A DNA stretch of 54,030 bases from Escherichia phage BSBP01, in sequence record PQ231202.1. One strand, given 5' to 3'. Positions 750 through 17,939 of this stretch are shown piece after piece. Under the pieces are notes generated by a model that saw only the letters and a program-made list of their open reading frames with translations, was not told where the DNA came from and searched no databases. Position 1 is the first letter of the stretch. Every line of letters starts with the position of its first letter. The translations under genes were made by a program, and so were the position numbers.

Positions 750-959
750 TCACTGTCGGGTAAGTTTGGAACACTTTTGTGCCCACGTTTCATTGTGGAC
801 TAAAATCTGTGTTTTGGTTTCGCGTGACAAAACTTTCACTTCTGCAACATCCAAATAGATTGGTTGTGCAATTAAGCAATAATCACTTACGAACCCACTT
901 TGAGAGCAACTCACTATCGACATTGCTATCAGAACTGCTAGACACTTCTTTCTGAACAT
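750..959 (-). CDS. Putative o-spanin (outer-membrane lipoprotein), overlapped with the i-spanin in another frame
   Basis: ATG at 959 inside ORF 750..1076; N-terminus MFRKKCLAVLIAMSIVSC has a lipobox (IVS-C); short Cys-containing mature part. Confidence 0.45.
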   Translation of the reverse strand: MFRKKCLAVLIAMSIVSCSQSGFVSDYCLIAQPIYLDVAEVKVLSRETKTQILVHNETWAQKCSKLTRQ

Positions 960-1119
960 GCGTTTTAATCTCGATAGATTCTTTAATGGAATCGAATTGC
1001 TTCTCTGTGGCTTCCTGACGCTCCTCGGCTTTGCCTGAGCTTTTGCCTTTGAGGAACACTGCAATAATAATACCAAATGCAGTCAGGACGCCAAGAACTA
1101 TTGATTTAAGCTGTTGCAT
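883..1119 (-). CDS. Putative i-spanin-like type II membrane protein
   Basis: ATG start with AAGGTGA Shine-Dalgarno upstream; single N-terminal TM segment then charged periplasmic domain; o-spanin start embedded in it. Confidence 0.4.
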   Translation of the reverse strand: MQQLKSIVLGVLTAFGIIIAVFLKGKSSGKAEERQEATEKQFDSIKESIEIKTHVQKEVSSSSDSNVDSELLSKWVRK

Positions 1120-1831
1120 AAATCACCTTAGATGGCGCACGCACCACTTGAGCAGTCGTTGTCGCCAGCACCAGGAACGATTGCTTCTTCGTCCTGCTTT
1201 TTCTTGAGTTCTTCAATTGCTTCTTCGGCAGCACCGAAGTCTAAATTATCAAGTGCATCAAAATCCATGAGGACTCCAGTGTTGCGGGTTATTAAAAATA
1301 GCCCAGAGCCGTTATGCAGATATTAACAATTGTCTGCGAACGGGCTGGGCTTGGTAAGGTGGGGGGGTTTTGATAACGCAGGTTTTCCCGAACTGCGAGG
1401 CTTGTAGCAAGACAGCCGCATTACTTTGCGAATGCCAGCAGGATTGATAGTCCGACCGTCTTTGCTTAGGCAACCTGATTTAATCTACCTTTGTAGATAC
1501 CATCGGTTAGAGCAGTTTATTTCCATGCTAAGGGCAACTCACTTTAAATGAATTAAGTTTGTACTCTGTCACACTGCATCGCCCAGGTGTGCAGCCTAAG
1601 GTTGTCGGTTCATCGCAGAATACAAATTAATTATTGCTCCGATTTATTAATCACATCTCGAAGCCACAATGCGCCAAATTTGGTTACGTGGGATTGGAAG
1701 ACCACGGAGAGGACTTAAATTTAATTAAGCCGCAACTCGCATTTCAGAATCATTTGCACTTGTGTTTAAATGAATAAAACAGTCGCAATAACTCCAGGCA
1801 GTTTAGGCCCGTCGTAAGACTCAGAAAACTA

Positions 1832-1890
1832 CTTCAATAACACCACTCGTAAGTAATGTTATTGAAGCCCACTCTTCCTTTCAGAGTGGG
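1832..1890 (-). terminator. Two tandem perfect hairpins (10-bp and 8-bp stems) followed by a U-rich tract on the minus strand
   Basis: cttcaataac..gttattgaag and cccactct..agagtggg inverted repeats, about 77 nt downstream of the stop of gene 1967..2305. Confidence 0.3.
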
Positions 1891-1966
1891 TTCAAGGCAG
1901 CACCGGAAAACTTCCAGTGCATGCCAGATCGATTTAGCCTAGTCTCTCAAGTTTGCCATCGGCAAC

Positions 1967-2305
1967 TTAGAATACCGGAGCTTCTTCAACAGCAGCTTCA
2001 GCAGCTTCTGCAACACTTGCGTCAGCAACTTTAGCTTCTTTCGGAGTATCGAACTTAGTACGCTCAACTTCCGGCTCACCAGATTCAACCCACGGCAGGT
2101 AGAATGCCAGGAACTGCTCGATGGTGTTCTTCTGCATGGAGCGAGAACGGTCGATAGCGCCAACGGTGTTCAGGTACGCTTCGGCAGCTTTCTCAATTTT
2201 AGCACCGTTTTCCAGTTTGAAGTCATGTGCATTACACTCTGCTTCGGTCAGGAACAGGGAACCATCGTTAGCTTCGTACTGAGTTACGGTTACAATCTTA
2301 GCCAT
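1967..2305 (-). CDS. Hypothetical protein with acidic Ala/Glu-rich C-terminus ending in Phe
   Basis: 112-aa ORF; C-terminus AEAAEAAVEEAPVF. Confidence 0.55.
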   Translation of the reverse strand: MAKIVTVTQYEANDGSLFLTEAECNAHDFKLENGAKIEKAAEAYLNTVGAIDRSRSMQKNTIEQFLAFYLPWVESGEPEVERTKFDTPKEAKVADASVAEAAEAAVEEAPVF

Positions 2306-2380
2306 TTGTATATACCTTATATTGAATAGTTTTGCACGCCACGGTGACGTGACTTAGATAAAATTAAAGAGCCTTTCTCT

Positions 2381-2406
2381 TTCCACATCCAACTAATGTT
2401 TCAGAA
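2381..2406 (-). promoter_or_regulatory. Copy 1 of conserved intergenic motif (plus-strand TTCAnnTCCAACTAATGT), candidate phage RNAP promoter
   Basis: Near-identical about 20-bp element recurs 7 times, always intergenic and in the same orientation upstream of minus-strand genes. Confidence 0.3.
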
Positions 2407-2428
2407 CTGCTCTGATTCGTCAAACGAC

Positions 2429-3103
2429 TCAATATCTATTGAATCGTTCTAGTGTTTTATTTACTAAATCCTTTGTCTCATCGACAGTGAGTTCAGTGAT
2501 GATTGATTCGTCATAACCCTCAATCTGGATTGCTACAAAACGCCCAACTCCAGTCACAGTGAGTCGGTTTGTTCTGTCACGAACAACTACACCAGCTTCT
2601 TGCGCGACTGCTCGCAACAATTTCCAGCGTAAAGTTCGATTTGGCACAGCAAAGCCCTTTGCCGAGAACAACTCTTTCATGAGTTCTCCAAGACAAACAG
2701 CTTCAATGTTTTGTCCTCTTCCAACTAATTCTTGCAACAGGCACAGTGTCAACATTTCTAAATTGTTGAAGTGTCCAGCGCGCTCCAAATTAAAGAACTC
2801 TGGAGGAACAGTTGAACGAGATTTAACAGCTTGCTTATATGCACGTTCTTCTTCCTGTGCAGCAAGCATTAGCATCTCTGGCTTGATGTATTTCATAGCA
2901 GAGAAGCCAGCGCGTGTGGCTTTAATTATGCGACAAGCCTCTTTCATCTTGTAGCGTTGCCACTCACCGCGCTTCGATTCTGGATTAAAATGGACCCACA
3001 TAATGATAACATCTTCCTTGGCAAGATAGACGGCATCATTATCATTGAGCCATTGCTTACACGTTGATAGTGCAATCTCTTTGTCATCATCATGATAAGA
3101 CAT
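2429..3103 (-). CDS. Hypothetical protein
   Basis: Long ORF; start placed at internal ATG (MSYHDDD) 2 nt past the stop of the upstream gene. Confidence 0.55.
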   Translation of the reverse strand: MSYHDDDKEIALSTCKQWLNDNDAVYLAKEDVIIMWVHFNPESKRGEWQRYKMKEACRIIKATRAGFSAMKYIKPEMLMLAAQEEERAYKQAVKSRSTVPPEFFNLERAGHFNNLEMLTLCLLQELVGRGQNIEAVCLGELMKELFSAKGFAVPNRTLRWKLLRAVAQEAGVVVRDRTNRLTVTGVGRFVAIQIEGYDESIITELTVDETKDLVNKTLERFNRY

Positions 3104-3104
3104 T

Positions 3105-3431
3105 TTAGTGGCCTTGTAGGATACGTTTGTTCGCAGTTTCTGCGTCGATTCCCAAATCAACTAATGTCACCAAGCACTGCGAAATCCGCTCTTGCGCAGC
3201 TTTCTCCAGAATTTGGTATTTTTCGTTGTCAACGCCTAACACATTCTTGGCATGAATGAGTGTAGCCATTAGACCATGACCCAAAGCAACAGCTTGCATT
3301 GCCTGGAGTTCAAAGTTAATTGTGATGCCAGCGAGTTCGTGCTCTTTCTGGATAATCTCAATCAACTCTTCTTTAGATTTGTCTTGTAAGTTCAAAATGG
3401 AACTCCGTAAACTGGTTGGTTTGTTGTCCAT
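3105..3431 (-). CDS. Hypothetical protein
   Basis: 108-aa ORF in the co-directional gene array. Confidence 0.5.
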   Translation of the reverse strand: MDNKPTSLRSSILNLQDKSKEELIEIIQKEHELAGITINFELQAMQAVALGHGLMATLIHAKNVLGVDNEKYQILEKAAQERISQCLVTLVDLGIDAETANKRILQGH

Positions 3432-3712
3432 TCGCGGGTTGCGATTTGCATGGACTTGTTTGGGCCGCAGTAGAAATATTTCTTAACTTCTGCAAGGGTG
3501 TATTTAGCACTACATTCGAGTATATCTTTGAAAGTGTGCTTCCAGAACCCGTCCTTCTCAGAAATTCTTACGGTGAAGTTGTTGGTCCCGTTGTAATACC
3601 AACGCCCACCAACGAGAACGAAGTGGATTGTTTCTTCCTCCTCTTCCCCACTTGGCGAAGACATTAGCACATTTCTTAACGTCAAAACTTTAGCAGAATG
3701 CTTACGAACCAT
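3392..3712 (-). CDS. Hypothetical protein
   Basis: ORF 3392..3736 with start moved to the internal Met to limit overlap. Confidence 0.45.
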   Translation of the reverse strand: MVRKHSAKVLTLRNVLMSSPSGEEEEETIHFVLVGGRWYYNGTNNFTVRISEKDGFWKHTFKDILECSAKYTLAEVKKYFYCGPNKSMQIATREWTTNQPVYGVPF

Positions 3713-3911
3713 TTTGCAACTCCTTAATTTTGGCAATTAAGTCGCGCATGATTTTAGGGCCAATAGCCAAGTCACCAGTCATATCATAAAGGTCACTGCC
3801 TATTGCTTTTGCATTATTCTCCCAACCCTCAATAAGTTCTAACAATTCTTCAATTGTGTAGCCCTTAAACTGAAAGTTTTCGTTATTAATTACGCCGTAT
3901 TTTTGAACCAT
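3702..3911 (-). CDS. Hypothetical protein
   Basis: 69-aa ORF. Confidence 0.45.
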   Translation of the reverse strand: MVQKYGVINNENFQFKGYTIEELLELIEGWENNAKAIGSDLYDMTGDLAIGPKIMRDLIAKIKELQNGS

Positions 3912-4460
3912 AGGAACTCTCCAATTTTCGATTCAGTGTTTGTGACTTCTCTTCTCATCTTTTGGCCCATGAAACAGGCCACAGAGTTGCGAAAATAGCC
4001 CTGTTTTAGGGCCATAGTCCAACCGTTTGTGTCAATTCTGGATAACTGCATTGGCGAAGGGTTACTCCCGTTAGGGTGCGGCCTACGCATCATATCTGCA
4101 TAGCAGCCTGGCAAGCTGCGGAGGCCACAGAGGCTTTGCAACCCTTCCCAATACATTCACCCAATCCACCTGCTTTGGCATAGCTGGTGGCGCGGTTTTG
4201 TGCGGATTATGCCACTCTAAGCCCTGTTTGTCCGACTTCCTCAGAGCACCAGCAGCTTGTGGCACAAACCTATTTTCGAATGACTAACATAAGCATGAGG
4301 CACAACCCTCTAATTATTCAGCCCTAACAGCTTGCTTATTTAGTTCCAATTCATCCCAATACATCGCCTATAACAAGTGAATAGCTTTTCTGCGAAGAAG
4401 TATTCCGGCCCTTTGGCCTATGTTAAAAAGATAAATGTATATGATGGAAACATTCCATCT

Positions 4461-4550
4461 TGAAGTTCCCTCGCGCAATCGGAAGGACTCGAACCTTTCA
4501 CTCCACCCTTGTGCACAGGGCTTCTACCCAGACGATATGGAAGGAACTTC
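4461..4550 (-). ncRNA. tRNA-like structured element (non-canonical; possibly degenerate tRNA)
   Basis: Minus strand carries a T-arm-like AAAGG-TTCGAGT-CCTTC, an anticodon-like hairpin GCCCT-GTGCACA-AGGGT and a closing stem GAAGTTC/GAACTTC, but spacing is not canonical. Confidence 0.2.
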
Positions 4551-4564
4551 AATGATGTTGTCTC

Positions 4565-4589
4565 TTCAATTCCAACTAATGTTTCAGAA
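4565..4589 (-). promoter_or_regulatory. Copy 2 of conserved promoter-like motif
   Basis: cttcaattccaactaatgtttcagaa. Confidence 0.3.
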
Positions 4590-4651
4590 TTATTCCAATA
4601 TTCCAAACAAAAAGAATAATAAGAATAAAATTAAATAAATGAAGAAAGTGC

Positions 4652-4681
4652 TTGACACCCATTTGGCGATAAGTGTATAAT
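4652..4681 (+). promoter_or_regulatory. Near-consensus sigma70-type promoter on the plus strand (TTGACA-N18-TGnTATAAT)
   Basis: TTGACA at 4652-4657 and TATAAT at 4676-4681 with TG at 4674-4675 and an AT-rich upstream tract; points opposite to all genes. Confidence 0.35.
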
Positions 4682-4706
4682 GCCTTTCTTCCCTAAGAGG
4701 TCAGAA

Positions 4707-4730
4707 TCAAATTCTACTAATGTTTCAGAA
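4707..4730 (-). promoter_or_regulatory. Copy 3 of conserved promoter-like motif (variant)
   Basis: tcaaattctactaatgtttcagaa. Confidence 0.25.
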
Positions 4731-4791
4731 TTAAGCCGAAGGCCAATGCGAGTACAAAACCCGCTTGGCACTTCGACGGAACAGCCTGGAA

Positions 4792-5028
4792 CTACACTGC
4801 CTTCCAATCTGAATCAAACAGTTCCTTCGGTCTTGTATAAATTATCGAATTAATTCCCAAGAAAGTATGATTTCCATACTTCTTAACTTCCTGGTAAGCA
4901 AACCCATCTACCCAATTGCCGCAGTGGGTTTTAATCTTTGTAGCAAACAGAATTCGATAGTAGTGACCACGAGGCTGGTGGAAGAGAATATCTTCTGGCT
5001 TGATTGAGTTGATATTTAAATCAGACAT
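4792..5028 (-). CDS. Hypothetical protein
   Basis: 78-aa ORF overlapping the next gene by a few nt. Confidence 0.45.
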   Translation of the reverse strand: MSDLNINSIKPEDILFHQPRGHYYRILFATKIKTHCGNWVDGFAYQEVKKYGNHTFLGINSIIYTRPKELFDSDWKAV

Positions 5029-5563
5029 TTAGGAATAATACTCCTTCAGAGAAGATATAGTCGCTGCCGAAGTCTTTCACAATTGCTTCCCAATCAATAT
5101 ATGGTGCAAGGCGGTCTGGAATATCCAGTGCTTCACTTTGCTTGAAGTAGTCTGCAATTGAATCGCAACGAGTAATGAACATGTCGTTCAAATCATTCAC
5201 AGTGAAAATATCAATATCACCACTGCGGAATGCTGCAAGAATTACATCCAAATCGGTGTCAACAAGCAGCTCATTGAACTTATCATACTTGCGAATGCTG
5301 AACAGGCCATTGGCAAAGCAAACTTCTGTTACATCTGCTTCACTTGATTCAAGTATGTCATAAGTCCCATCTTCTGGGTATTCGATGCCGTATTCTTCAT
5401 GCAAATAATCCCGCATGTCGAAATCATAGTGACGCCAAGACAGGCCATCAATCCACGCATCTACAAATTCAGAATTAGTTTCGCCTGTGTAGAAACGAAC
5501 CAATAAGGTTTCATCTCTACGCCAGGACTTAAGATTTTCTATTGCTTGGATAATGGTGCTCAT
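5021..5563 (-). CDS. Acidic protein, possible ArdA-like antirestriction (DNA mimic) protein
   Basis: 180 aa, highly Asp/Glu-rich; C-terminal segment resembles the ArdA C-terminus by eye. Confidence 0.4.
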
Positions 5564-5838
5564 ATGCTCTCCATTGTGTCAGTTAATGCACTATGTATTT
5601 TACGAAGTTTTACTAATCTTTCCTCGCTATTTTTAATAAGCGTCCGCATAATAGCTTCTTTCTCATTGAAGCTAATTTTCATGGAAGTTTCTCCAACCTC
5701 CATATAAGCATTTAATCGAACTTCATCGCTTAGATTCAGCGCAGACATTTGATGCAATTCTTTCTTTGCCTTATCTATACGGGCATAGTGATGCTGAATC
5801 TCTGCTGGTATGTCTTGATAATTCATCGGATTCTCCAT
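5560..5838 (-). CDS. Hypothetical protein
   Basis: 92-aa ORF. Confidence 0.45.
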
Positions 5839-5846
5839 TGATGAAG

Positions 5847-6260
5847 TTATGCTGGAAGTTCGAAGTGCGGCATATCAATCAGCTTCTTCTTACCTGGTGC
5901 AAGTGGTGGATACGGCTGATTTTCATCAATACGGCTCCAGTTCCCACCCCAACGAATGGTAATTCCAAGCTCTTTTGCAGCTTTGAACATGTGATGAGCT
6001 AAAACTTTGAATCGTTCGAGGTCATTCCAGTCAATTGGATATGGTGCAATGTCCAAAGCGTTACCAGACATGTGTCGGCTTACTGAAACTTTGGTTGCAC
6101 CTTGTTTTAACAGTTCTTGTTGACGTTCATAAGAGCGTAAACCTTCCAAAACAGTCACATCAAAAGGCATGGTTTCACATGCCCGTTTGAAAACTGCAAC
6201 TAATGAAGGATTTACTCCCTTAAGTCGGTCTAAAGAACGTTGACCGAGCTTAACATTCAT
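5847..6260 (-). CDS. L-alanyl-D-glutamate peptidase (M15 family) endolysin-type enzyme
   Basis: [11 protein letters not shown] and DMPHFE zinc-ligand motifs typical of M15 peptidases such as the T5 endolysin. Confidence 0.75.
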
Positions 6261-6535
6261 TATTTGCCCTTTAACGCATCGTTTAAAGTGTTGTTTAACA
6301 GTGTGTTGAGGTTATCAAGTTCATCAAATGATGCCTGAGCCTTGGTAACTTCATCAACAAGTAATGCTCGAAGTACTGCGTGCTCAACAAGCACCCATCC
6401 GTCAATACAGTCGATGAAAACTTTAACTTTATCAACTGGAGCATTTAAATCAAAGGCCGACAAGTCAGATTTGGCATTATCTAGCTTACCTTTTGCCTTG
6501 CTTAGTTCAACTGGAACTTGGTCAATCGAAATCAT
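6260..6535 (-). CDS. Hypothetical protein
   Basis: 91-aa ORF, start adjacent to the stop of the upstream gene. Confidence 0.45.
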   Translation of the reverse strand: MISIDQVPVELSKAKGKLDNAKSDLSAFDLNAPVDKVKVFIDCIDGWVLVEHAVLRALLVDEVTKAQASFDELDNLNTLLNNTLNDALKGK

Positions 6536-6765
6536 TGAAAGCTATTCCCACTAGGGTGAATGGTTAATTTGAAGGATACTAACTCTTTATTGATTGAGGT
6601 TGTTCCAATAACTGTTGCCTCAAACAACATAGATTTAGAAGTTTCCTTCCCCACACGTTCCAAGTATTTTACAACTCGGTCGTGAATTACTGCCCACTGG
6701 CGATATTCGCAATCAGATTCCAGCAGGTATTGAACCCCATCAATGGTAAATTCGGTTGAAGTCAT
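6532..6765 (-). CDS. Hypothetical protein
   Basis: 77-aa ORF with 4-nt overlap coupling. Confidence 0.45.
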   Translation of the reverse strand: MTSTEFTIDGVQYLLESDCEYRQWAVIHDRVVKYLERVGKETSKSMLFEATVIGTTSINKELVSFKLTIHPSGNSFQ

Positions 6766-7121
6766 TTCTTCTCCGCACAGCTGGTGGATAAGATAGGGTA
6801 GTTTGCTTTGAGGAAGTCTCCGTCACGGAAAATCTGAAGTACAAGTTTGTCTTCATGATTTATAAACAGTGCAGCAAACCTGCTATCTTTAATGTTGTAA
6901 AACAAAACTGTTGCAGGATTGGGTTCATCACTTGGAACCTCTATCCAAACACCAGCTTCAGGAATTATTGACGCAATCAGAGGTTGGCTATCTCCAATAT
7001 TATCAATTACAAGAGCATATGCTCCACATTTGAAGTTCTTTGTTGACGCTTTAGACTCAAAGCTGAAGAACGCCAAAACAATTAATGCTAAGGTATAAAT
7101 AATGATGTATTTAAGTCTCAT
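6762..7121 (-). CDS. Putative secreted protein
   Basis: N-terminal signal-like hydrophobic segment MRLKYIIIYTLALIVLAFFSFESKA. Confidence 0.45.
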   Translation of the reverse strand: MRLKYIIIYTLALIVLAFFSFESKASTKNFKCGAYALVIDNIGDSQPLIASIIPEAGVWIEVPSDEPNPATVLFYNIKDSRFAALFINHEDKLVLQIFRDGDFLKANYPILSTSCAEKK

Positions 7122-7173
7122 AATTCCTCCAATAATTAATCGAGGCCACTCGAAGTGGAATGACCTCTGTTAA

Positions 7174-7878
7174 TTACAGCTTCTTGATAAGCTCTGCGGA
7201 TTTGCTTGCAGCAACTTTCATTTCATCGCGTGCGGCTTTAGAGATTGATGCCTTGTCCACGCGAATATTACAGTTACCAACTGCAATCTTGCCATCTTCT
7301 GTTGGCGGAAGCTGAGTTAACTCCAGCATTTGCTCTAGCTTTTGCAGAAGAATGCGTTGTGCTTCGATTGCATTTTGAATATTTAATGTTTCCATTACTG
7401 CTCTCACCTTTCTTGAGAATGTTCCAGTTAGTGCCAGGCGTACTTGCAAACCTTTGACGCCAGCATAGTCCACATTCACTTTATTGGCTGGCGAATGTGG
7501 ATGTTTGTACACGTTTGTTACAGTTGCCCAATTGCCATTTACCCAAATAACATCGCCAACTTCCACATCTTTTCCGAGAACATCTTCTTCATCGGATATT
7601 TCCTGCTTCTTGAACTCCTCCACAGGAAGGAATACTGGATTTATTTGGTTAGGGAACTCAATTGTTGGGGTTTCCAAGGCTGGTGGTCTGTCAAGCAACT
7701 TGACTATACGACCAAGTTCAAAATTAAAGTACCCACCAGAATATTGCAGTTGAACTACATCACTAAATCGAAGTATATTTACAATTAAATATTCTCTGTT
7801 GTTATAGACTAATACATCACCAGTTTTAACCAGATTGGCTGGTATTTCGACAACCTTAGTTCCCATGATATTCCTCAC
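7174..7878 (-). CDS. Hypothetical protein
   Basis: 234-aa ORF. Confidence 0.55.
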   Translation of the reverse strand: MRNIMGTKVVEIPANLVKTGDVLVYNNREYLIVNILRFSDVVQLQYSGGYFNFELGRIVKLLDRPPALETPTIEFPNQINPVFLPVEEFKKQEISDEEDVLGKDVEVGDVIWVNGNWATVTNVYKHPHSPANKVNVDYAGVKGLQVRLALTGTFSRKVRAVMETLNIQNAIEAQRILLQKLEQMLELTQLPPTEDGKIAVGNCNIRVDKASISKAARDEMKVAASKSAELIKKL

Positions 7879-7987
7879 GCATTACTGCACAGTGTTTGCA
7901 AACCCAAATGGTTACATAATCGTTTTCGTGTGAAATTTCCCAATTATGTAGCCCTATAAAACATAAGATTTTCATAGGGCATCTCTA

Positions 7988-8365: not shown

Positions 8366-8437
8366 GATTAATTTCTCTTTAAGTTAATTACAGTTTAAGT
8401 TTCAGTGACATTGCTAACCACGGAATAGCTTTGTCTC

Positions 8438-8458
8438 TCTTCAAATCCAACTAATGTT
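8438..8458 (-). promoter_or_regulatory. Copy 4 of conserved promoter-like motif
   Basis: cttcaaatccaactaatgtt, about 75 nt upstream of the SSB-like gene. Confidence 0.3.
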
Positions 8459-10410: not shown

Positions 10411-10465
10411 GGAACACGAGTGGGAACATCAGAATACAGAATACAAGTTTCTTTACAATATCCAT

Positions 10466-10684: not shown

Positions 10685-10981
10685 TCTTTAAGCCATCGTG
10701 TTTTTAGATTTGCTGGGAACCAGGATTTAAATTCTTCGGAGTAAACCCTTGTGAAATGGAATTCGGGTGTGGTTAGTATGAGCATCCCACCACCAGTTCT
10801 TAGTAGCAGATTCTCGTAACTCACTTAATACTCCAATTCCCAAATACCAGGTTAACTATTTTAGCCACTTTACGTGCTGGCATACGAGGATTTGCAGCTC
10901 TCGCTAATTTCTTAGCCTTACGCTTTGAAGCACCGTACATAGCCATGTAGGTAACCGTTTTGGTCATATATTTGAGCTTCT

Positions 10982-11164
10982 TCATTTTCCACTCCGAGCA
11001 GCATCAAGCTGTTCTTCAAGAAGATTGATGTGTTGGCCTAAGAACAAGGCCATTTCACGAGAAATTACAACAGATTCGATTTTCGGATTTTCTGCCACTT
11101 GCTTAACACCTTGCAGGAAACTCCAAAGACTCACTTCTTCATTTTCGAACATGGTTAACCTCAA
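10982..11164 (-). CDS. Hypothetical protein
   Basis: 60-aa ORF. Confidence 0.35.
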   Translation of the reverse strand: MRLTMFENEEVSLWSFLQGVKQVAENPKIESVVISREMALFLGQHINLLEEQLDAARSGK

Positions 11165-11394
11165 TAGAAGTTTGCTGCCAGATTTTCCAACACTTTGACA
11201 GTCAAAACATCATCGTTAAGTTGTTGGAAAGTGATATCAATCCCAACTTCATCTTTAATACGAACAACAAGCTCACTTAAAATAGTGTCAGCCCAACCAC
11301 AATAGTTGACAATAATTCTCTCTTGAAGGAATTCTACTTTCTCTTCGTAAGAGGCCAACTCGATTAAGTCAGCCTTTAATTTAAACTGTGTCAT
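11161..11394 (-). CDS. Hypothetical protein
   Basis: 77-aa ORF. Confidence 0.4.
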   Translation of the reverse strand: MTQFKLKADLIELASYEEKVEFLQERIIVNYCGWADTILSELVVRIKDEVGIDITFQQLNDDVLTVKVLENLAANFY

Positions 11395-11579
11395 CTTGCC
11401 TCCAGAATTTGATTTAATCCACTGAACACGATTTCTTCATGTTCGTCAGTTGTACATGCATTGATGTAATCAAAGTCATAACCAACAAACTTCTCCGCCC
11501 ACTCCTGTAAACGAAGTAAAGAATTGAAGTACAACCTTTGCTCTACACCATTTAATTTGAAGAAGACGATGAAGTCCAT
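11391..11579 (-). CDS. Hypothetical protein
   Basis: ORF 11391..11663 trimmed to the internal Met to avoid overlap. Confidence 0.35.
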   Translation of the reverse strand: MDFIVFFKLNGVEQRLYFNSLLRLQEWAEKFVGYDFDYINACTTDEHEEIVFSGLNQILEAR

Positions 11580-11581
11580 GA

Positions 11582-11824
11582 TTAGCCTCTTACTTTCAGG
11601 AAGTCTGGATGTGCGGCAGTTGCCACAACTTTGTGATGTTTGTCGTTCTGGATTGCTTGCCAAACATATTCAGGATATGCGGCATTCTTCCACACCAGTT
11701 TGTTTTCGTAAATTGATGTGCCACACATTAGGTCTGCCAACATTATTGCTCTGGTCCTAGTATTAACCAAAGCATGAGAAACAACGCCATCACGATTAAT
11801 GTATTGATAGAGTGCATAATTCAT
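11582..11824 (-). CDS. Hypothetical protein
   Basis: 80-aa ORF. Confidence 0.4.
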   Translation of the reverse strand: MNYALYQYINRDGVVSHALVNTRTRAIMLADLMCGTSIYENKLVWKNAAYPEYVWQAIQNDKHHKVVATAAHPDFLKVRG

Positions 11825-11826
11825 AA

Positions 11827-12033
11827 CTAAACTCCGTATCTCTTGTATTTGTCGCCTTTGGAGACTTCCAAATATTCCTCAAATGTGAAAGTCCTCTCCT
11901 TGCTGTTTAATCTTGCCAACGACAAGTCTGCAACAAATTCGGCATTAAAACCTTTGTTAGAGGTCTTTCTCATGTGTGCCCCACCTCGTGTAAAGAATGT
12001 TGCACCTTCTGGTAAATCTTCGAAATTAGTCAT
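11827..12033 (-). CDS. Hypothetical protein
   Basis: 68-aa ORF, first gene after the repeat-rich non-coding region. Confidence 0.4.
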   Translation of the reverse strand: MTNFEDLPEGATFFTRGGAHMRKTSNKGFNAEFVADLSLARLNSKERTFTFEEYLEVSKGDKYKRYGV

Positions 12034-12323
12034 TTTATTCTCCTAAGTTAAAAGAAAACTCCCTACAGAACGATTGTGGAGGTCTTGTCTTACCTCAGTC
12101 CACCTTAAAGTTGTAGGGAGTTATATAGTATTCCTGTGTGTGCCGCCATCAGGGACTTCCTAGTCTGGTGGGCGCGTCGCAATCCAGCAATATACCACAC
12201 GTTTTTCACAGGCTATATATGTGACACACAAAGTGTCTAAAAACTACAATGATTAGCTTGGAGACATAATCTCTCTAAAATCTGTCACACAATTTCAGCA
12301 GAATTTACAGAGATTTGGTCTTA

Positions 12324-12340
12324 TTCACATGCAACTAATG
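12324..12340 (-). promoter_or_regulatory. Copy 5 of conserved promoter-like motif (variant)
   Basis: ttcacatgcaactaatg. Confidence 0.25.
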
Positions 12341-13238
12341 ATAAATGGACATGCTTAATTGCAACTAACTCATCTGCCAAATAGACGAATTTTGTCACAA
12401 TTAAACATGCGTCATTAATTACAGGTTTACTCCCATCTTGGAATGTATTTGGCACATTAAGATTGGAGCAAGTAGGTACGGAAAACCGACCATGTACAGC
12501 ATAATAAAACAAATTAAATAAAGGGTTTTATCCCAATATTGTCACAATATTACATGCGATGATAAAGCCTTCGCTTGGCTGGAAGCCAGTATTCATGCGG
12601 GTTGCAAGAATATTGGGTCAATACTGATACAGCTATTACATGCGAAATTGGCACAAATACTGTTACAAAATTAACATGCCAGATTGGTAGACGATTGTAT
12701 CTTCGAGGTGATTAGTCCTCTAACAATTCTGCCACATTCCAACATGCCAATTTGTAGCAATATTTACATGCCATACTGCGACGCAATTGTCACAATATTT
12801 GTTGCTCAAAATCGGGGCGGCTTCTGCGTGTAAACGAGAGGCTTTGCTCCGACTCTTCTCTTCTTTCGAATTCTGATTGAAAGAAAGAAGCATGTCCAAA
12901 AGTTCCAGTCTTGTAAAAGTTATCTCCCGGCTTGTGGGTGGGCCTTGATAATAGGAGTAACAGGTTGTCCGCTATTTTGTGCACTGAGCTAGGATTGAAT
13001 CCAGATTGCACTTTACTAGGTGGCGAACCAAGATTGAAACTAATAGACATGCTATAGGTGAAGTACAAGTTTCGAAGTATATAATCCTACTCTTTGCCAT
13101 GGTTGCTGGAACTATGGGTAGCTAATCCAGGGAGTTCGACAATTGCCACATTGCCACAACACTTTGACTCAAGCTGTCATGCTGAATGTTTCTAGAATGA
13201 TTCAACATTACATGCGGAATATTTATCCGTATTCTTTT

Positions 13239-13258
13239 ACTTCACATCCAACTAATGT
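13239..13258 (-). promoter_or_regulatory. Copy 6 of conserved promoter-like motif
   Basis: cttcacatccaactaatgtc, just downstream of the RNAP gene. Confidence 0.3.
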
Positions 13259-13361
13259 CGAATATTGAAACAATATTACATGCAGCAATATTGCTTGAAT
13301 ATTGGGATTTAGTTGTTGATGCACAAGAATAGGGCCAGTGTTTCCACCAGCCCCGTTTCTC

Positions 13362-15302
13362 TTATTGACAGAAGTAGTAAGCGTGTTCGCTCATCAGAAG
13401 CTCTTCGGTTACGATGTTCTCATGATACATCTGAATGCCACCGAGTTGCTTAGACAGATTCTCGAATTGATTGTTGGTTACGAAGATTTCAACATATGCT
13501 GCACGAATAACTTCCATCATACGTGGAGCATCTGCCAAACAGCAACGGAAACAATCGTGGATTGAAGTGAAACCACGAAGACCAGCTTCTTTAGCTTTAA
13601 CAGCAACAGTACGAGCAACCAATGCGTCGATACCTTGAATATAGTTGACTACGAAAGTACGCTTGAATTCCTCTTTAGTAGGATTGGATTCACGAATGGT
13701 CCAAGGTTTCTCTTCCTGAATCTGGCCAAAGATAACACGAGTTTGAGAGTCAACACGAATGCTGAATGCATCACAGATTTCACGAGATGGGAAGCAAGGC
13801 TTCATTACAACCTGACCATCAGTGTGCTTATAGGTGATGTATTCCTTGTTAAGCTCAACACAACGTTGATATGCAGCATCAGCAGCTTTCTCAATGAACA
13901 TGTTAATCTTAGCACCCAATGCGTTATGGATTGCTTCCACACACAGTTCAGCAAATGCCTCAGCCTTCTCAACTGGAATCTGAAGAGATGCAGTCATGTA
14001 AGAGATAAAGTCAGAAGAACCAGTTAAAGCAGCTTTACCACCACCATACTGAATAGCCATGTATGGAGTTTTGATAAACTTACGACCAGCTTTCGGATTC
14101 AAGAACTCTTCCATGATTTCAACAGAAGGTTTCATTGAAGACTTATCCAGCAGCTTCAACAGTTCACGAAGACTCAACTGGTATGGGTCAGATGCTTTAG
14201 TCTCAGAATCAACCAGACCTGTTGCACGAGCCATTTCCATGTTACCAGCAATGAATGCCAGATACTGAGTACCAGAACATTTAGCATCTAAGCCAAAGCC
14301 TACACGAGAATCGCATTCACCTGTAGTCTCAAACTTGAACCAATCCAGAGCCAGACGAACATAAGTGAATGGCTTAGAAGGACGTTCAGCTTTAGGCATG
14401 TTCATCATGCGAGCAAGTGAACCAGCTGGATTCTGAGCAACATAAGTTAAACGTTTAGCAGAGCACCAGTCTCCACCAGAAATGTCTTCCAGCTCAGCCA
14501 TGAACATGTTGTATGCAATGGTAGTAGAACCATCTTCGTTAAACTTCTTAACGATGTTCTCAACATTGTGAGAATACAAGCAACGAGCAAAGTCAGAGGA
14601 TTGTGGGTTAGGACCAGCACATGCTACATGATACAGGCGACCACGGTTATCAGCAAAGTAGTCAGAATAGAGTGTATCCTGAGTCATCATTGCTACAGCA
14701 TTGTTCCAAACATGGAGTTCAGTCTGGATTGCTTCTGGCATCTGCAAGCCACCATAAGTACGTTGTTCAAGCATGGACTGGATGATGCGAACCATCTCAG
14801 TCTCCACATGGTACTCAGTATCTTGCAGGAATTCGATTGCAGCTTTCAGAGTTTTGGATGGCTTAACTTTGCCACCTTTAACGAAAGGCTTGCGACGAGA
14901 TTCAGATGTAACACGCTCAGTGAATGGCACTGCTGTGTCTTTGGTTGTAACCAGTTCAACCCATGTGTCAGTTTGTTGGAATGACTTGTCTTCGTTCATG
15001 GTGATGAAGCCGAAGTGCTTAGCCAGACCAATGAGGTTGATAGCTGGGTCAACATAGTGCATTGCTTTCAAATCGTTGTTGTAGCGATTGGCATCAGCAA
15101 TAGAAGCAGAAGCCAGCTCAACCATCGCAATGGCAGGAACAACATCATCACGTGTGAAAGACGTCATCATCTTGAATATGGCTAAGGCAGCAATAGCACA
15201 AGTCTGAGGCTGCATATAGTTCTGCTTCTCTTTGGCACGGTATACCAGAGCAGTGATAGCAGGAACAACAGATTTGATAGTTTGAGTGGTGATAGTAGTC
15301 AT
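13362..15302 (-). CDS. Single-subunit T7-like DNA-dependent RNA polymerase, N-terminally minimal (646 aa)
   Basis: Motif A LDAKCSGTQY, motif B RKFIKTPYMAIQYGGG, motif C TSIHDCF and a VNYIQGID segment align to T7 RNAP catalytic motifs. Confidence 0.8.
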   Translation of the reverse strand: MTTITTQTIKSVVPAITALVYRAKEKQNYMQPQTCAIAALAIFKMMTSFTRDDVVPAIAMVELASASIADANRYNNDLKAMHYVDPAINLIGLAKHFGFITMNEDKSFQQTDTWVELVTTKDTAVPFTERVTSESRRKPFVKGGKVKPSKTLKAAIEFLQDTEYHVETEMVRIIQSMLEQRTYGGLQMPEAIQTELHVWNNAVAMMTQDTLYSDYFADNRGRLYHVACAGPNPQSSDFARCLYSHNVENIVKKFNEDGSTTIAYNMFMAELEDISGGDWCSAKRLTYVAQNPAGSLARMMNMPKAERPSKPFTYVRLALDWFKFETTGECDSRVGFGLDAKCSGTQYLAFIAGNMEMARATGLVDSETKASDPYQLSLRELLKLLDKSSMKPSVEIMEEFLNPKAGRKFIKTPYMAIQYGGGKAALTGSSDFISYMTASLQIPVEKAEAFAELCVEAIHNALGAKINMFIEKAADAAYQRCVELNKEYITYKHTDGQVVMKPCFPSREICDAFSIRVDSQTRVIFGQIQEEKPWTIRESNPTKEEFKRTFVVNYIQGIDALVARTVAVKAKEAGLRGFTSIHDCFRCCLADAPRMMEVIRAAYVEIFVTNNQFENLSKQLGGIQMYHENIVTEELLMSEHAYYFCQ

Positions 15303-15368
15303 TTGTAAGTCTCCAAGATTGTGTATGATTTAACTGAAACGGATTATAATAGCGTAGCCATTACACAA

Positions 15369-15384
15369 TTCACTTCCAACTAAT
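15369..15384 (-). promoter_or_regulatory. Copy 7 of conserved promoter-like motif, about 70 nt upstream of the RNAP gene
   Basis: ttcacttccaactaat. Confidence 0.3.
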
Positions 15385-15550
15385 ATCACAAACCTGTGCC
15401 ATTGTTACAACAGCACGGAGACTTTGACCTTGACCCATAAGCGAAGCGCCTAACTTGGTGTTGTTTGAAAGCCGATAGGCTGTAGGAAAAAGTTGGAGTA
15501 GGGACCGTATTTAAGTCCGATAGGACGTTGGGCTTCCCCTCCCCGCTGGC

Positions 15551-15815
15551 CCAAAAATAAAATTATAATATTGCCACAATTCTAGTCTCGTTAATATCGT
15601 AACAATTCGAGTATCGTAGCTTTGTTACGAATTCTAGTCTCATTAATTCTGTAGCAATATTGAAAATAAAAAAAAAATTATAAAAAAAATTATTTAATAG
15701 TCGGTTTTCCATTCGAACAAATTTCGGCGAGATACAGTTGACCGACCATGTACCATTTGGTTTTAACTTTACGCATTCCTAATATTACTCTTAATATTGT
15801 AGCAATATTGGGAAT
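15551..15815. repeat. AT-rich non-coding region with direct and inverted repeats and poly-A runs
   Basis: aattctagtctc at 15578 and 15630; inverted repeat cgtaacaa/ttgttacg at 15598-15629; TGTAGCAATATT copies also seen in the 12.3-13.3 kb region. Confidence 0.45.
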
Positions 15816-15925
15816 AAATAAATATTTAATTTACTTGTCTTATTCTAGCTCAAAGAGAAACGACGCTAACGCATCGAATCTCTTCTCGCATATAACTGAC
15901 AAACGTCAGCCTTCACCGTATCCAA

Positions 15926-17026
15926 TCATAGTTCAAATCCGCCTAGAGCATTGGTGTCAACTTCGGAGTCAATCTGCCCAACAAGGTACGAACTAATCTC
16001 CGTTTCTTGTGGAGCTACTTGTACAGCATCCGAATTCAACCATGCGTTAATCCAAGGAATCGGGTTAGTAGCACCTTTGAATGGAGCATCCAATCCAACT
16101 GCTTGCATACGAATATTCGTGATATATTCCACATATCCGCACAGAATTTGCTTGTTTAAGCCAATCATTGAGCCATCTTTGAACAAATAATCAGCCCAAT
16201 CTTTCTCTTGTTGGGCCACATTTTCGAACATTATTTGGCATTCTTGACGGCATTCTTTAGCAATTTCAGCCATTTCTGGGTCATCAACACCACTTGCAAG
16301 AAGGTTCAGCATGTGCTGAGTTCCGGTCAAATGGAGTGCTTCATCACGAGCAATTAAGCGAATAATCTTGGCATTTCCTTCCATTAACTTGCGTTCAGCG
16401 AAGGCAAATGAGCAAGCAAAGCTAACATAGAAGCGGATTGCTTCCAGTGCATTAATGGACATGAGGCATAAATACAGCTTCTTCTTAAGCTCACGAAGAG
16501 AAACTTTATCTTCATGCAGATGCCACATGGAAGTCAGATGTTGAAGCTCGTCATAATATTGGGAGATACCAATTGCACGCATTTTAATGTGCTCATTCTC
16601 CACAATTTCATCGAAAATTACGCTTGGGTCTGTAACAATGTTACGGATAATATGCGTGTAAGAACGAGAGTGAATTGTCTCTGAGAATGACCAAGTTTCA
16701 ATCCAAGTTTCCAGCTCAGGAATGCTCACAATTGGAAGCAAAACTGTAGTTGGTCCACGTCCCTGAATGGAATCAAGCAGGATTTGGTATCGTAAATTGC
16801 TAGTGAAGATGTGCTTCTCGCATTCAGGCAGACCAGCATAGTCAATTCTGTCCTGGCTAACATCAACCTCCTCAGGTCGCCAAAAGAAAGATAACTGCTT
16901 CTCGATTAACTTCTCGAAGATGCTGTACTTCTGTTGGTCATATCGAGCAACATTAACGTTCTGGCCAAAGAACATTGGCTCTAGTAGTTGGTTATTCTTG
17001 GTTTGTGAAAAGGTAGTGTAAGCCAT
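15926..17026 (-). CDS. nrdB: Class Ia ribonucleotide reductase small subunit
   Basis: Very close to enterobacterial NrdB along its length ([37 protein letters not shown]..); no nrdA found in the window. Confidence 0.9.
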
Positions 17027-17580
17027 TACAGATTTCCTAGATACTCATAGAATTTATGGCCACCATAACGTCCCAAACCTTTAACATTCTTGAAGTTGCA
17101 CTTCTCCGATGCTGTACAAAAGTGGGTTGCTTTGGTGACAGAGGGTTGATTAAATAGTACAAAAGATATTGCAACATTAATAGTGTCCAGAACTTGTTGT
17201 TGTTCTGTGGCATAATTAATCTTTGCTACATGCTTCCATTGAGCATTCTTCTTCTTTGCTTCTCGTGTCCATGCAAATTGGTTGCGTTGATAGACAACAT
17301 CACAAACGGTGTTAGCGAATGGCTTCCCGAACTCAGTTCTATTACGGACGACATTAGCTACCAGAATCTTTCCATGTTTGTCTTCTCCGCGAGCTTCATA
17401 CCAGATAACTTTAGTGTAGCATTCTAGCTCTTTGCGTTGTGAAGAAGATAGTTTCAGACTTCCATTTAAATAAGAGTGACTTGCAAAATCTGTAATAGCA
17501 GAATTCACTGCCCCAACCGAAGCTGGGGCGTTGATGTGAACTAAAGCTGTCAGAAGTGCAAGGACTTTGAATGATAACAT
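17026..17580 (-). CDS. Secreted SleB/CwlJ-type cell-wall hydrolase, probable endolysin
   Basis: N-terminal signal-like segment; [17 protein letters not shown] motif of the Hydrolase_2 family; immediately downstream of the holin. Confidence 0.7.
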
Positions 17581-17597
17581 TCGAGTTCCTTACCATT

Positions 17598-17939
17598 TCA
17601 TCGTGCCTTCTTGAACCACGTCAAAGGATTAAGTTGTTTGATTGCGCCAGAGAAACTTTCCCTGACAGTTGTGATAATGAGGTTGGCACCAATGACACCA
17701 ATCACAATAGCTAACACCAACTGCATAGTGACGTTAGTTGTGAAAGTTTCAAATGTACCTGCGACCTGAAATGCAAACAGCCCGATTAAGCTACATAGCG
17801 TCGCATCCAGCAACGCTTTGCTTAAGCCCTCACTCTCATATGCACCACGGATTAAAGCCGTCAGGCCAGCCAACAGTCCATGCCAAACGCCGTATTGGTG
17901 CATTGCTTCCCAAATCATCTGGAAAGTTTGTCTATCCAT
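17598..17939 (-). CDS. Putative holin
   Basis: 113 aa, three predicted TM segments, basic C-terminus, directly upstream of the hydrolase. Confidence 0.55.
   Translation of the reverse strand: MDRQTFQMIWEAMHQYGVWHGLLAGLTALIRGAYESEGLSKALLDATLCSLIGLFAFQVAGTFETFTTNVTMQLVLAIVIGVIGANLIITTVRESFSGAIKQLNPLTWFKKAR

What the first reader, a model, noticed from the sequence alone, without database searches (positions are those of the whole stretch)
750..17939. Lysis functions are dispersed over three loci with two different muralytic enzymes
A holin and a signal-peptide SleB-type hydrolase sit at 17026-17939, an M15 L-Ala-D-Glu peptidase at 5847-6260, and an overlapped i-spanin/o-spanin pair at 750-1119. 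The tape measure protein also carries an SLT domain. The genome therefore encodes two distinct endolysin-type enzymes plus a virion-associated lysin.
Basis: partly seen in the sequence, partly recalled or inferred. Interest (0 to 1): 0.5.

Follow-up and report, generated by a model that had tools for sequence, protein, structure and literature searches.

The report
Ordinary dispersed phage lysis genes
The window is the whole genome of a phiEcoM-GJ1-like coliphage (family Chaseviridae), and its scattered lysis genes are all real but already annotated the same way in its published relatives, so the finding is correct and ordinary.

Summary
Every gene call in the finding holds. Holin: 17598-17939(-), lambda S family. 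Exported SleB/CwlJ-type hydrolase: 17026-17580(-). Signal-less M15 L-Ala-D-Glu peptidase: 5847-6260(-). Overlapped i-/o-spanin pair: 883-1119 and 750-959(-). The 1223-aa protein at the tape-measure position has a C-terminal SLT domain.

The window is a circularised assembly of a Carltongylesvirus (Chaseviridae). GenBank records of 4HA13, ST32 and Myduc already carry the same annotations, so the layout is known.

Dispersal is partly an effect of where the assembly was opened. On the linear genome, bounded by direct terminal repeats (DTR), the peptidase and the spanins lie in the middle-gene region. Holin and SleB-like close the late operon. T7 is laid out much the same way.

New here: all eight Chaseviridae genera sampled pair the exported Hydrolase_2 enzyme with a second, signal-less peptidase-type wall hydrolase. 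That partner is M15_4, M15_3 or CHAP depending on genus. In Nefertitivirinae the two genes are adjacent. This suggests both enzymes serve lysis, but no experiment shows it. T5-like phages and Certrevirus also carry this pairing.

The export signal looks like a cleavable Sec signal peptide, not a SAR (signal-arrest-release) anchor. Interest is low.

The parts
17598..17939 (-). Class I holin of the lambda S family, 113 aa. Its ATG overlaps the stop codon of the tail-fibre assembly gene (TAATG).
   Evidence: Pfam PF05106, 2.1e-8 (34.9 bits against a cut-off of 23.8); PHROG 126, 2e-18. Hydrophobic segments and a basic C-terminal tail, KKAR. Start/stop overlap read. Orthologues are annotated as class I holin in 4HA13 and Myduc.
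17026..17580 (-). Exported SleB/CwlJ-type (Hydrolase_2) cell-wall hydrolase, 184 aa, with an N-terminal signal sequence [24 protein letters not shown]|V.
   Evidence: Pfam PF07486, 1.1e-15; PHROG 938. Catalytic E62 and two phage-specific cysteines, C54 and C93, are invariant. Weak match to SleB 4f55. Signal-peptide-like N-termini in 10 homologues.
5847..6260 (-). Cytoplasmic (no signal sequence) M15 L-alanyl-D-glutamate endopeptidase, 137 aa, in the middle-gene region between the SSB and antirestriction genes.
   Evidence: Pfam Peptidase_M15_4, 1.3e-8; PHROG 465, 1.5e-54. PDB matches 23ri, 8q2g, 2mxz and 5opz at 2e-24 to 9e-18. No hydrophobic segment. Zinc and catalytic residues H63, D70, D129, H132 read.
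883..1119 (-). i-spanin, 78 aa, with an N-terminal transmembrane segment at residues 7-25 and a charged periplasmic tail.
   Evidence: PHROG 1026, Rz-like spanin, 3.8e-19. Transmembrane segment found. The phiEcoM-GJ1 orthologue is listed among two-component spanins in PMC6139136.
750..959 (-). o-spanin, 69-aa lipoprotein precursor (lipobox I-V-S-C18, Ser at +2). The gene starts inside the i-spanin gene in the +1 frame and runs past its end (overlapped architecture).
   Evidence: PHROG 1275, 5.9e-18. Sequence and frame read.
27747..31418 (-). 1223-aa virion protein at the tape-measure position. It carries a C-terminal SLT lytic-transglycosylase domain (about nt 28017-28346) and an internal YqaJ-like nuclease domain (about nt 29634-30044).
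   Evidence: Pfam SLT, 1.6e-7, and YqaJ, 3.5e-12; PHROG 19855. 64% identical to the 4HA13 tape measure protein, which was detected in virions (PMC9699118). The GEES...GAKGRMQ motif is read.
17939..18469 (-). Tail-fibre assembly gene immediately upstream of the holin. This is context that places the holin and SleB-like genes at the end of the late operon.
   Evidence: Pfam Caudo_TAP, 8.9e-8; PHROG 136.
15861..15876 (-). Terminator-like hairpin after the RNR-beta gene, the likely end of the late transcript that carries the holin and SleB-like genes.
   Evidence: Consensus scan only. Weak evidence.

Best explanation
This is the normal three-step Gram-negative lysis system of a Carltongylesvirus, with its genes spread through the genome as in T7.

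Shown by sequence:
- A lambda-S-type class I holin and an exported SleB/CwlJ-type glycan-cleaving enzyme are the last morphogenesis-linked genes of the late operon.
- A signal-less M15 L-Ala-D-Glu endopeptidase sits in the middle (DNA-metabolism) region.
- An overlapped i-/o-spanin pair sits further along the same region.
- The tape-measure protein carries an SLT domain.

Inferred mechanism:
- The peptidase accumulates harmlessly in the cytoplasm from mid-infection.
- The SleB-like enzyme is exported by Sec late in infection. It is most likely cleaved to a soluble periplasmic form and stays ineffective while the membrane is energised.
- When the holin triggers, the membrane is depolarised and perforated and the peptidase is released.
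- The wall is then attacked at both the glycan strands and the peptide stems.
- The spanins finally fuse or disrupt the outer membrane.
- The SLT domain on the tape measure acts at entry, not at lysis.

Both wall enzymes are taken to be real lysis components, additive or partly redundant.
For: - Domain and catalytic-residue evidence for every part.
- The holin ATG overlaps the tail-fibre assembly stop codon. The SleB-like gene follows 17 nt later with a Shine-Dalgarno sequence, and its stop overlaps the next ATG. This points to one late transcription unit.
- Family survey. All eight Chaseviridae genera sampled keep Hydrolase_2 plus a second signal-less peptidase-type hydrolase. It is M15_4 in Carltongylesvirus, Sabourvirus, Loessnervirus and Faunusvirus. 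It is M15_3 in Myducvirus (2e-30). It is CHAP in the same SSB-to-antirestriction slot in PM1.
- In Nefertitivirinae (Aeromonas H1, Shewanella Spp001) M15_3 lies directly upstream of Hydrolase_2, just after the tail fibres.
- An unrelated 101-kb viral contig has M15_3, Hydrolase_2 and a multi-TMD protein in a row.
- Replacement of the partner by a different fold, and adjacency of the two genes in one subfamily, both argue that the partner's wall-degrading activity is the selected function and belongs to lysis.
- The same pairing occurs in T5-like phages, where the M15 enzyme sits next to the holin (PMC11180984). It also occurs in Certrevirus, where the SleB-like protein has a signal peptide and is toxic when expressed in E. 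coli (PMC7344957).
Against: - No genetic or biochemical test exists for either enzyme in any Chaseviridae phage, as far as the held literature shows.
- Conservation of two enzymes does not prove that both act at lysis.
- A soluble, active periplasmic muralytic enzyme made before holin triggering should be dangerous to the infected cell. The model needs an unproven restraint.
- Among 80 diverse Hydrolase_2 loci from IMG/VR, only one had an M15 or CHAP gene within 10 kb. This used narrow home-made profiles. The pairing is therefore not a general property of Hydrolase_2 phage enzymes.
- Two GenBank records call the enzyme a SAR endolysin.
Confidence: 0.55

Rival explanations
1. Only the SleB-like enzyme next to the holin is the endolysin. 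The middle-region peptidase has another job or is a dispensable back-up. Possible other jobs are wall remodelling during infection, help with superinfection or entry, or a T7-gp3.5-like regulatory role on the phage RNA polymerase.
For: - Holin and SleB-like genes are adjacent in every Cleopatravirinae genome examined.
- The Myduc annotators name this protein the endolysin and call the M15 protein only a 'putative peptidase'.
- The M15 gene sits where T7 has its lysozyme gene 3.5, in a phage with a T7-like RNA polymerase. The T7 layout is from my own knowledge.
Against: - A polymerase-binding role would not survive replacement by CHAP (PM1) or M15_3 (Myduc), which have different folds.
- In Nefertitivirinae the peptidase sits in the late cluster beside the SleB-like gene.
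- Close homologues (EndoT5, RB49-type) are solved L-Ala-D-Glu peptidases. EndoT5 is referred to as the T5 endolysin in PMC7344957 and PMC10487532.
Confidence: 0.2
2. The M15 peptidase is the true holin-dependent endolysin, as in T5. The exported SleB-like protein is an accessory periplasmic wall-modifying enzyme that is not needed for lysis.
For: - A canonical three-TMD large-hole holin is what a signal-less endolysin needs.
- In T5-like phages the M15 enzyme is next to the holin and the SleB-like gene is elsewhere (PMC11180984).
Against: - In this family it is the SleB-like gene that is linked to the holin.
- Hydrolase_2 is the invariant member of the pair across all eight genera, while the peptidase is swapped.
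- A Certrevirus SleB-like protein is toxic in E. coli, and its CR3 homologue has been implicated in lysis (PMC7344957).
Confidence: 0.1
3. The SleB-like enzyme is a SAR (signal-arrest-release) endolysin. It would be tethered inactive in the inner membrane by an uncleaved N-terminal anchor and released when the holin depolarises the membrane. This is a variant of the best explanation that differs only in how the enzyme is restrained.
For: - GenBank annotations for 4HA13 and DE15 say 'SAR endolysin'.
- The segment V6-A24 reaches a mean Kyte-Doolittle score of 1.64 over 19 residues.
- SAR would neatly solve the premature-lysis problem.
Against: - In all 10 homologues the hydrophobic core is only about 9-14 Leu/Val/Ile-rich residues.
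- The core is followed, often after a proline, by a small-x-small site: VGA, ASA, VHA, HKA, AQA or SQA. That is the anatomy of a cleavable Sec signal peptide.
- SAR domains are described as longer and rich in Gly, Ala and Ser (my own knowledge).
- The Myduc annotation states 'No TMD - endolysin (not SAR)'.
Confidence: 0.3

Closest known systems
Lysis gene set of other Cleopatravirinae (phiEcoM-GJ1, ST32, vB_EcoM-4HA13, Myduc, PM1, Y2-like Erwinia phages)
   Same: Same genes in the same order and relative positions. In 4HA13 these are L-Ala-D-Glu peptidase gp20, i-/o-spanin gp34/35, tape measure gp67, class I holin gp78 and endolysin gp79. ST32 Table 2 lists two 'endolysins' and a holin. Proteins identical to the window's are present in TH25 (M15, 100%) and EcoM1 (SleB-like, 100%).
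   Different: Nothing of substance. The window lacks the tRNA-Arg of GJ1. Like GJ1 and ST32, it has an RNR-beta gene appended after the SleB-like gene.
Phage T7 lysis genes (3.5 amidase, 17.5 holin, 18.5/18.7 spanins); from my own knowledge
   Same: The wall enzyme lies in the middle DNA-metabolism region near the SSB gene. The holin lies directly after the tail-fibre genes. The spanins are at a third site. The phage has a single-subunit RNA polymerase.
   Different: T7 has one wall enzyme (Amidase_2 fold, also a polymerase inhibitor), a class II holin and spanins near the terminase genes. Here there are two wall enzymes of other folds, and one of them is exported.
T5-like phages (Demerecviridae): M15 L-Ala-D-Glu endolysin plus SleB-like hydrolase
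   Same: The same two enzyme families occur in one genome, and the SleB-like protein has a signal-peptide-like N-terminus (PMC11180984; PMC3326045).
   Different: The linkage is reversed. In T5 the holin sits next to the M15 enzyme and the SleB-like gene stands alone in the early region.
Certrevirus / Vequintavirinae (CB7, phiTE, rV5, CR3)
   Same: There is no single lysis cassette. They have a SleB-like protein with a signal peptide plus a second wall enzyme (T5-like M15 in CB7 and phiTE), and the spanins lie elsewhere (PMC7344957).
   Different: These are large myoviruses of about 140 kb. The candidate holin is a small two-TMD protein. In other members the second enzyme is a lysozyme-like protein rather than a peptidase.
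Secreted endolysin Lys44 of oenophage fOg44; from my own knowledge
   Same: An endolysin with a cleavable Sec signal peptide that is exported before lysis and only becomes effective when the membrane is de-energised by the holin. This is a possible model for how the SleB-like enzyme is restrained.
   Different: Gram-positive host and a different catalytic fold. No evidence here for the same regulation.

Membership tests
Hydrolase_2 (SleB/CwlJ) cell-wall hydrolase | Match to Pfam PF07486 above the gathering score | tested here: met
   58.5 bits against a cut-off of 27, E 1.1e-15, covering the whole model.
Hydrolase_2 (SleB/CwlJ) cell-wall hydrolase | Catalytic glutamate in the E-(A/S)-R-G-E motif | tested here: met
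   E62 in YEARGE is invariant in 6 homologues and aligned with GESRGE of B. cereus SleB 4f55.
Hydrolase_2 (SleB/CwlJ) cell-wall hydrolase | Glycan-strand cleavage (lytic transglycosylase products) on host peptidoglycan | not testable with these tools
   Needs muropeptide analysis.
SAR endolysin | Uncleaved, weakly hydrophobic, Gly/Ala/Ser-rich N-terminal membrane anchor long enough to span the bilayer | tested here: inconclusive
   The hydrophobic core is about 9-14 residues and Leu/Val-rich. It is followed by Pro and a small-x-small site in 10 homologues, which looks like a cleavable signal peptide. No dedicated predictor was available.
M15 L-alanyl-D-glutamate endopeptidase endolysin (EndoT5 / RB49 type) | Sequence homology to the family and to solved members | tested here: met
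   Peptidase_M15_4, 35.7 bits against a cut-off of 25. PDB 8q2g at 4e-24 and 2mxz at 1.1e-19. PHROG 465 at 1.5e-54.
M15 L-alanyl-D-glutamate endopeptidase endolysin (EndoT5 / RB49 type) | Zinc ligands H-x6-D...H plus a catalytic Asp | tested here: met
   SRH63MSGNALD70 and D129MPH132 are read directly. The same motifs are conserved in 4HA13, Fougasse and Faunus.
M15 L-alanyl-D-glutamate endopeptidase endolysin (EndoT5 / RB49 type) | Acts as the lysis enzyme released by the holin | not testable with these tools
   It has no signal sequence, so it would need a holin. The function itself is untested.
Class I holin, lambda S family | Pfam PF05106 match, small size, three transmembrane segments, charged C-terminus, linkage to an endolysin gene | tested here: met
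   34.9 bits against a cut-off of 23.8. Two strong hydrophobic segments and one weaker N-terminal one, with a KKAR tail. It lies next to the SleB-like gene. TMHMM and Phobius disagree (2 versus 3 TMDs) for the 4HA13 orthologue.
Class I holin, lambda S family | Dual-start holin/antiholin motif | tested here: inconclusive
   M1, M8 and M13 are present, but there is no clear Met-Lys-Met-type motif.
Two-component spanin, overlapped architecture (Rz/Rz1-like) | i-spanin with an N-terminal TMD. o-spanin with a lipobox Cys, starting inside the i-spanin gene in the +1 frame and ending beyond it. | tested here: met
   TMD at residues 7-25. Lipobox IVS|C18 with Ser at +2. ATG at 959, which is 160 nt after the i-spanin ATG, giving the +1 frame. 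77-nt overlap. PHROGs 1026 and 1275.
Two-component spanin, overlapped architecture (Rz/Rz1-like) | Complex that spans the periplasm and disrupts the outer membrane | not testable with these tools
   The i-spanin is short (78 aa, about 53 periplasmic residues) and has no Cys. Function is not shown.
Tape measure protein carrying a virion-associated lysin domain | Gene between the tail tube/chaperone and baseplate genes; protein present in virions; muralytic domain with a catalytic Glu | tested here: met
   Gene order is sheath, tube, a 152-aa ORF, the 1223-aa protein, then baseplate (4HA13 annotation). 64% identity to the 4HA13 tape measure, which was found by MS. SLT 31.4 bits against a cut-off of 21.3, with the GEES motif. 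Virion presence is inferred from the orthologue only.

The most novel reading that the evidence does not exclude
The two wall enzymes may form an obligate, ordered pair rather than redundant endolysins. The SleB-type enzyme would be exported ahead of time but would be nearly inert on intact, peptide-decorated peptidoglycan. This would echo spore SleB/CwlJ, which need muramic-delta-lactam, that is, muramic acid without a peptide stem. The holin-released peptidase (M15_4, M15_3 or CHAP) would strip or cut the stems and so license glycan cleavage. Holin control of one cytoplasmic enzyme would then gate a pre-positioned periplasmic one. This would explain why Chaseviridae, T5-like phages and some Certrevirus pair Hydrolase_2 with a peptide-cutting enzyme, and why the partner can be swapped for another fold.
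Probability: 0.12. Interest if true: 0.55.

Novelty: already known. Interest (0 to 1): 0.2.

Why it matters
For this window it matters little. The annotation is confirmed and matches published relatives.

The modest added value is comparative. A whole phage family keeps an exported SleB-type enzyme together with a replaceable cytoplasmic peptidase, and two other phage groups do the same. Yet nobody has tested which enzyme lyses the cell, or how an exported muralytic enzyme is kept harmless in a Gram-negative host.

That is a tractable question about the regulation of lysis. It also bears on the choice of enzymes from these phages as antibacterials.

Tried and rejected
- **Second holin or antiholin beside the M15 gene.** The neighbours (6260-7121, 5560-5838) have no Pfam hit and only unknown-function PHROGs. 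The 119-aa protein at 6762-7121 has a signal peptide but no known family.
- **M15 as a T7-lysozyme-like regulator of the phage RNA polymerase.** Rejected. The slot holds CHAP in PM1 and M15_3 in Myduc, and the gene is in the late cluster in Nefertitivirinae.
- **General adjacency of Hydrolase_2 and peptidase genes.** Among 80 IMG/VR Hydrolase_2 loci with up to 10 kb of flank, only L081 had an M15_3 neighbour. My profiles were built from three sequences or one, so the negatives are weak. M15 genes more than 10 kb away, as in this family and in T5, are missed by design.
- **Pantoea phage PA1 'Chaseviridae endolysin' paper (PMC11538084).** The enzyme is an unrelated lysozyme-like protein and is not informative.
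- **tRNA at the GJ1 tRNA-Arg position.** None was found by ARAGORN or Rfam.
- **Papers not available.** The original GJ1 and Y2 papers are not held. The Myduc announcement says nothing on lysis.
- **Structure prediction.** Not run. The tool returns no coordinates, so it could not test the C54-C93 disulfide idea, and the domain evidence was already strong.

Full report
**What the window is.**
The first and last 127 bases of the 54,030-base window are identical. Essentially all long ORFs lie on the minus strand. Megablast places the window in Chaseviridae, Cleopatravirinae, genus Carltongylesvirus. These are phiEcoM-GJ1-like coliphages, with 82-95% identity over long stretches to Ecp_YSF, vB_Shi_2KOFFS, PO103-1, GJ1 and the Yersinia PYps phages. 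The window is therefore a complete, circularised assembly of one phage genome.

Real genomes of this family are linear, with direct terminal repeats of 2.3-3.1 kb that contain the RNA polymerase gene (PMC12842549; PMC8762354; 4HA13 record). Read in the direction of transcription, the physical order is:
- RNA polymerase (15302 to 13362)
- small early genes
- SSB (8365 to 7988)
- M15 peptidase (6260 to 5847)
- antirestriction gene
- spanins (1119 to 750)
- across the arbitrary break in the assembly, the replication genes
- terminase, head and tail genes, and tail fibres
- holin (17939 to 17598)
- SleB-like gene (17580 to 17026)
- RNR-beta

**The observation.**
- The 184-aa protein is a Hydrolase_2 (SleB/CwlJ) domain protein (1.1e-15).
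- The 113-aa protein is a lambda-S-family holin (2.1e-8).
- The 137-aa protein is an M15 peptidase. It matches solved L-Ala-D-Glu endopeptidases at 1e-19 to 2e-24, including EndoT5 and Serratia ChiX.
- The two small overlapping ORFs match the PHROG families of Rz-like spanins (3.8e-19 and 5.9e-18).
- The 1223-aa protein has an SLT domain near its C-terminus.

Catalytic residues are intact. These are E62 of the SleB-like protein, H63/D70/D129/H132 of the peptidase, and the GEES...GAKGRMQ motif of the SLT domain.

The o-spanin starts at 959, not at the TTG at 1076 that heads the mechanical ORF. Its precursor MFRKKCLAVLIAMSIVS|C has a standard lipobox. It lies in the +1 frame of the i-spanin and overlaps it by 77 nt.

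**Context of the late genes.**
The holin ATG overlaps the stop codon of the tail-fibre assembly gene. The SleB-like gene follows after 17 nt with a Shine-Dalgarno sequence, and its stop overlaps the ATG of RNR-beta. These genes therefore close the late operon. A terminator-like hairpin follows RNR-beta (weak evidence). The peptidase has no hydrophobic segment and must be cytoplasmic.

**Signal peptide or SAR.**
I compared the N-termini of ten SleB-like proteins. They came from seven Cleopatravirinae, two Nefertitivirinae and T5. All have one or two basic residues, a Leu/Val/Ile-rich core of about 9-14 residues, often a proline, and then a small-x-small site: VGA, ASA, VHA, HKA, AQA or SQA.

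It also agrees with the Myduc annotation 'No TMD - endolysin (not SAR)'. GenBank records for 4HA13 and DE15 say 'SAR endolysin'. I could not run a dedicated predictor, so I give about 2:1 for a cleavable signal.

Two cysteines, C54 and C93, are invariant in the phage proteins but absent from B. cereus SleB at the aligned positions. This fits a periplasmic, possibly disulfide-bonded enzyme, but that is inference.

**Is the layout new?**
No.
- The ST32 paper lists ORF24 'endolysin' (M15), ORF77 holin and ORF78 'endolysin' (SleB-like) (PMC6266442).
- The curated 4HA13 record, the ICTV exemplar, annotates L-Ala-D-Glu peptidase, i-spanin, o-spanin, tape measure, class I holin and endolysin at the corresponding places.
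- The GJ1 spanins appear in the spanin census (PMC6139136).
- The GJ1, ST32 and 4HA13 peptidases are aligned with EndoT5 in PMC10487532.
- The 4HA13 tape measure, 64% identical to the window's protein, was among the most abundant virion proteins by mass spectrometry.

Dispersed lysis genes are also familiar from T7, T4 and T5 (my own knowledge). The arrangement here resembles T7 most closely: wall enzyme near the SSB gene, holin right after the tail fibres, and spanins at a third site.

**What the comparison adds.**
I sampled eight genera of the family, and every one keeps the exported Hydrolase_2 enzyme together with a second, signal-less, peptidase-type wall hydrolase.

| Genus or group | Partner enzyme | Position |
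|---|---|---|
| Carltongylesvirus, Sabourvirus, Loessnervirus, Faunusvirus | T5-type M15_4 | middle region |
| Myducvirus | M15_3 (2e-30) | early-middle region |
| Suwonvirus (PM1) | CHAP/TIGR02594 (Pfam CHAP 2e-6, PHROG 1259 4e-46) | same slot between SSB and antirestriction gene |
| Nefertitivirinae (Aeromonas vB_AhydM-H1, Shewanella Spp001) | M15_3 | immediately upstream of Hydrolase_2, in one cluster after the tail fibres |

An unrelated 101-kb viral contig (L081) has M15_3, Hydrolase_2 and a multi-TMD protein in a row. The same pairing is described for T5-like phages, with the holin next to the M15 enzyme instead (PMC11180984). It is also described for Certrevirus (PMC7344957).

Two facts argue that the partner's wall-degrading activity is what selection keeps, and that it belongs to lysis. 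First, it can be replaced by a different fold. Second, the two genes are adjacent in one subfamily. Both facts also argue against a T7-lysozyme-like regulatory role. This is why I rank 'both enzymes take part in lysis' first.

**Limits.**
- No mutant or enzyme assay exists for this family in the literature I could search.
- The pairing is not general. Of 80 diverse Hydrolase_2 loci from IMG/VR, only L081 had an M15 or CHAP gene within 10 kb. My profiles were narrow, and distant partners are missed by design.
- How an exported muralytic enzyme is kept harmless until the holin fires is unknown. It might depend on membrane energisation, as for Lys44 of fOg44 (my own knowledge). It might be SAR tethering. 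Or the peptidase may need to act first. The last is the most novel reading, and I give it about 12%.

**Verdict.**
The feature is the ordinary, already annotated lysis complement of a known phage genus. Interest is low. The only open biology is the division of labour between the two wall enzymes.

Noticed in passing
window 27747-31418 (-), domain at about nt 29634-30044 (aa 459-595): The virion protein at the tape-measure position contains a YqaJ-like PD-(D/E)XK exonuclease domain (Pfam 3.5e-12; PDB exonuclease 3syy, 2.3e-7). The P-D...E-x-K residues are invariant in orthologues from both subfamilies: 4HA13, PM1, Aeromonas H1 and Shewanella Spp001. The SLT domain, by contrast, is detected only in Cleopatravirinae. 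A conserved, apparently intact nuclease domain inside a tape measure protein is unusual. A text search for papers pairing 'tape measure' with 'YqaJ' returned 13 papers, none evidently about this from their titles and abstracts; I did not open them. This may be the most interesting thing in the window.
   Followed up: partly
window 1294-1355: A 62-bp stretch is 98% identical to many Stx2a-converting phages and other coliphages. It sits where phiEcoM-GJ1 has its tRNA-Arg. No tRNA is detected here. The inserted sequence reads as a hairpin followed by a T-run, so it may be a shared terminator-like element.
   Followed up: partly
window 1-127 and 53904-54030: An exact 127-bp repeat lies at the two ends of the window. 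This is most likely an assembly overlap from circularisation. The true terminal repeats of the family are 2.3-3.1 kb and include the RNA polymerase gene.
   Followed up: yes
window 15926-17026 (-): A ribonucleotide reductase beta-subunit gene is appended to the late operon, with its ATG overlapping the stop of the SleB-like gene. No ORF long enough to be an alpha subunit is visible in the window. PM1, 4HA13, Faunus and Nougat lack this gene at that position. Nefertitivirinae have both alpha and beta subunits next to the terminase gene.
   Followed up: no
window 6762-7121 (-): A 119-aa protein with a textbook signal peptide (MRLKYIIIYTLALIVLAFFSFESKA|S) and two cysteines lies two genes upstream of the M15 peptidase. 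It matches only an unknown-function PHROG (35432). It is a small secreted periplasmic protein of unknown role. A T4 RI-like lysis regulator is pure speculation.
   Followed up: partly
window 32526-33974 (-): The tail sheath protein is about 93% identical to TH25 and PYps phages but only about 64% identical to GJ1, ST32 and DE15, although those share about 91% DNA identity with the window in the early region. The structural module is mosaic within the genus.
   Followed up: no
L008 36722-37654 and L015 1277-2193: The Nefertitivirinae lysis clusters have no lambda-S-type holin and no recognisable lipoprotein o-spanin. Instead they have a protein of about 135-141 aa with one TMD and a Gln-rich coiled-coil-like tail, a 62-63-aa amphipathic protein without Cys, and a soluble 104-113-aa protein. 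This subfamily may disrupt the membranes by a different route.
   Followed up: partly
window 883-1119 (-): The i-spanin is only 78 aa, with about 53 periplasmic residues, and has no cysteine. Lambda Rz is about twice as long (my own knowledge). Whether such a short pair can bridge the periplasm is not obvious.
   Followed up: no
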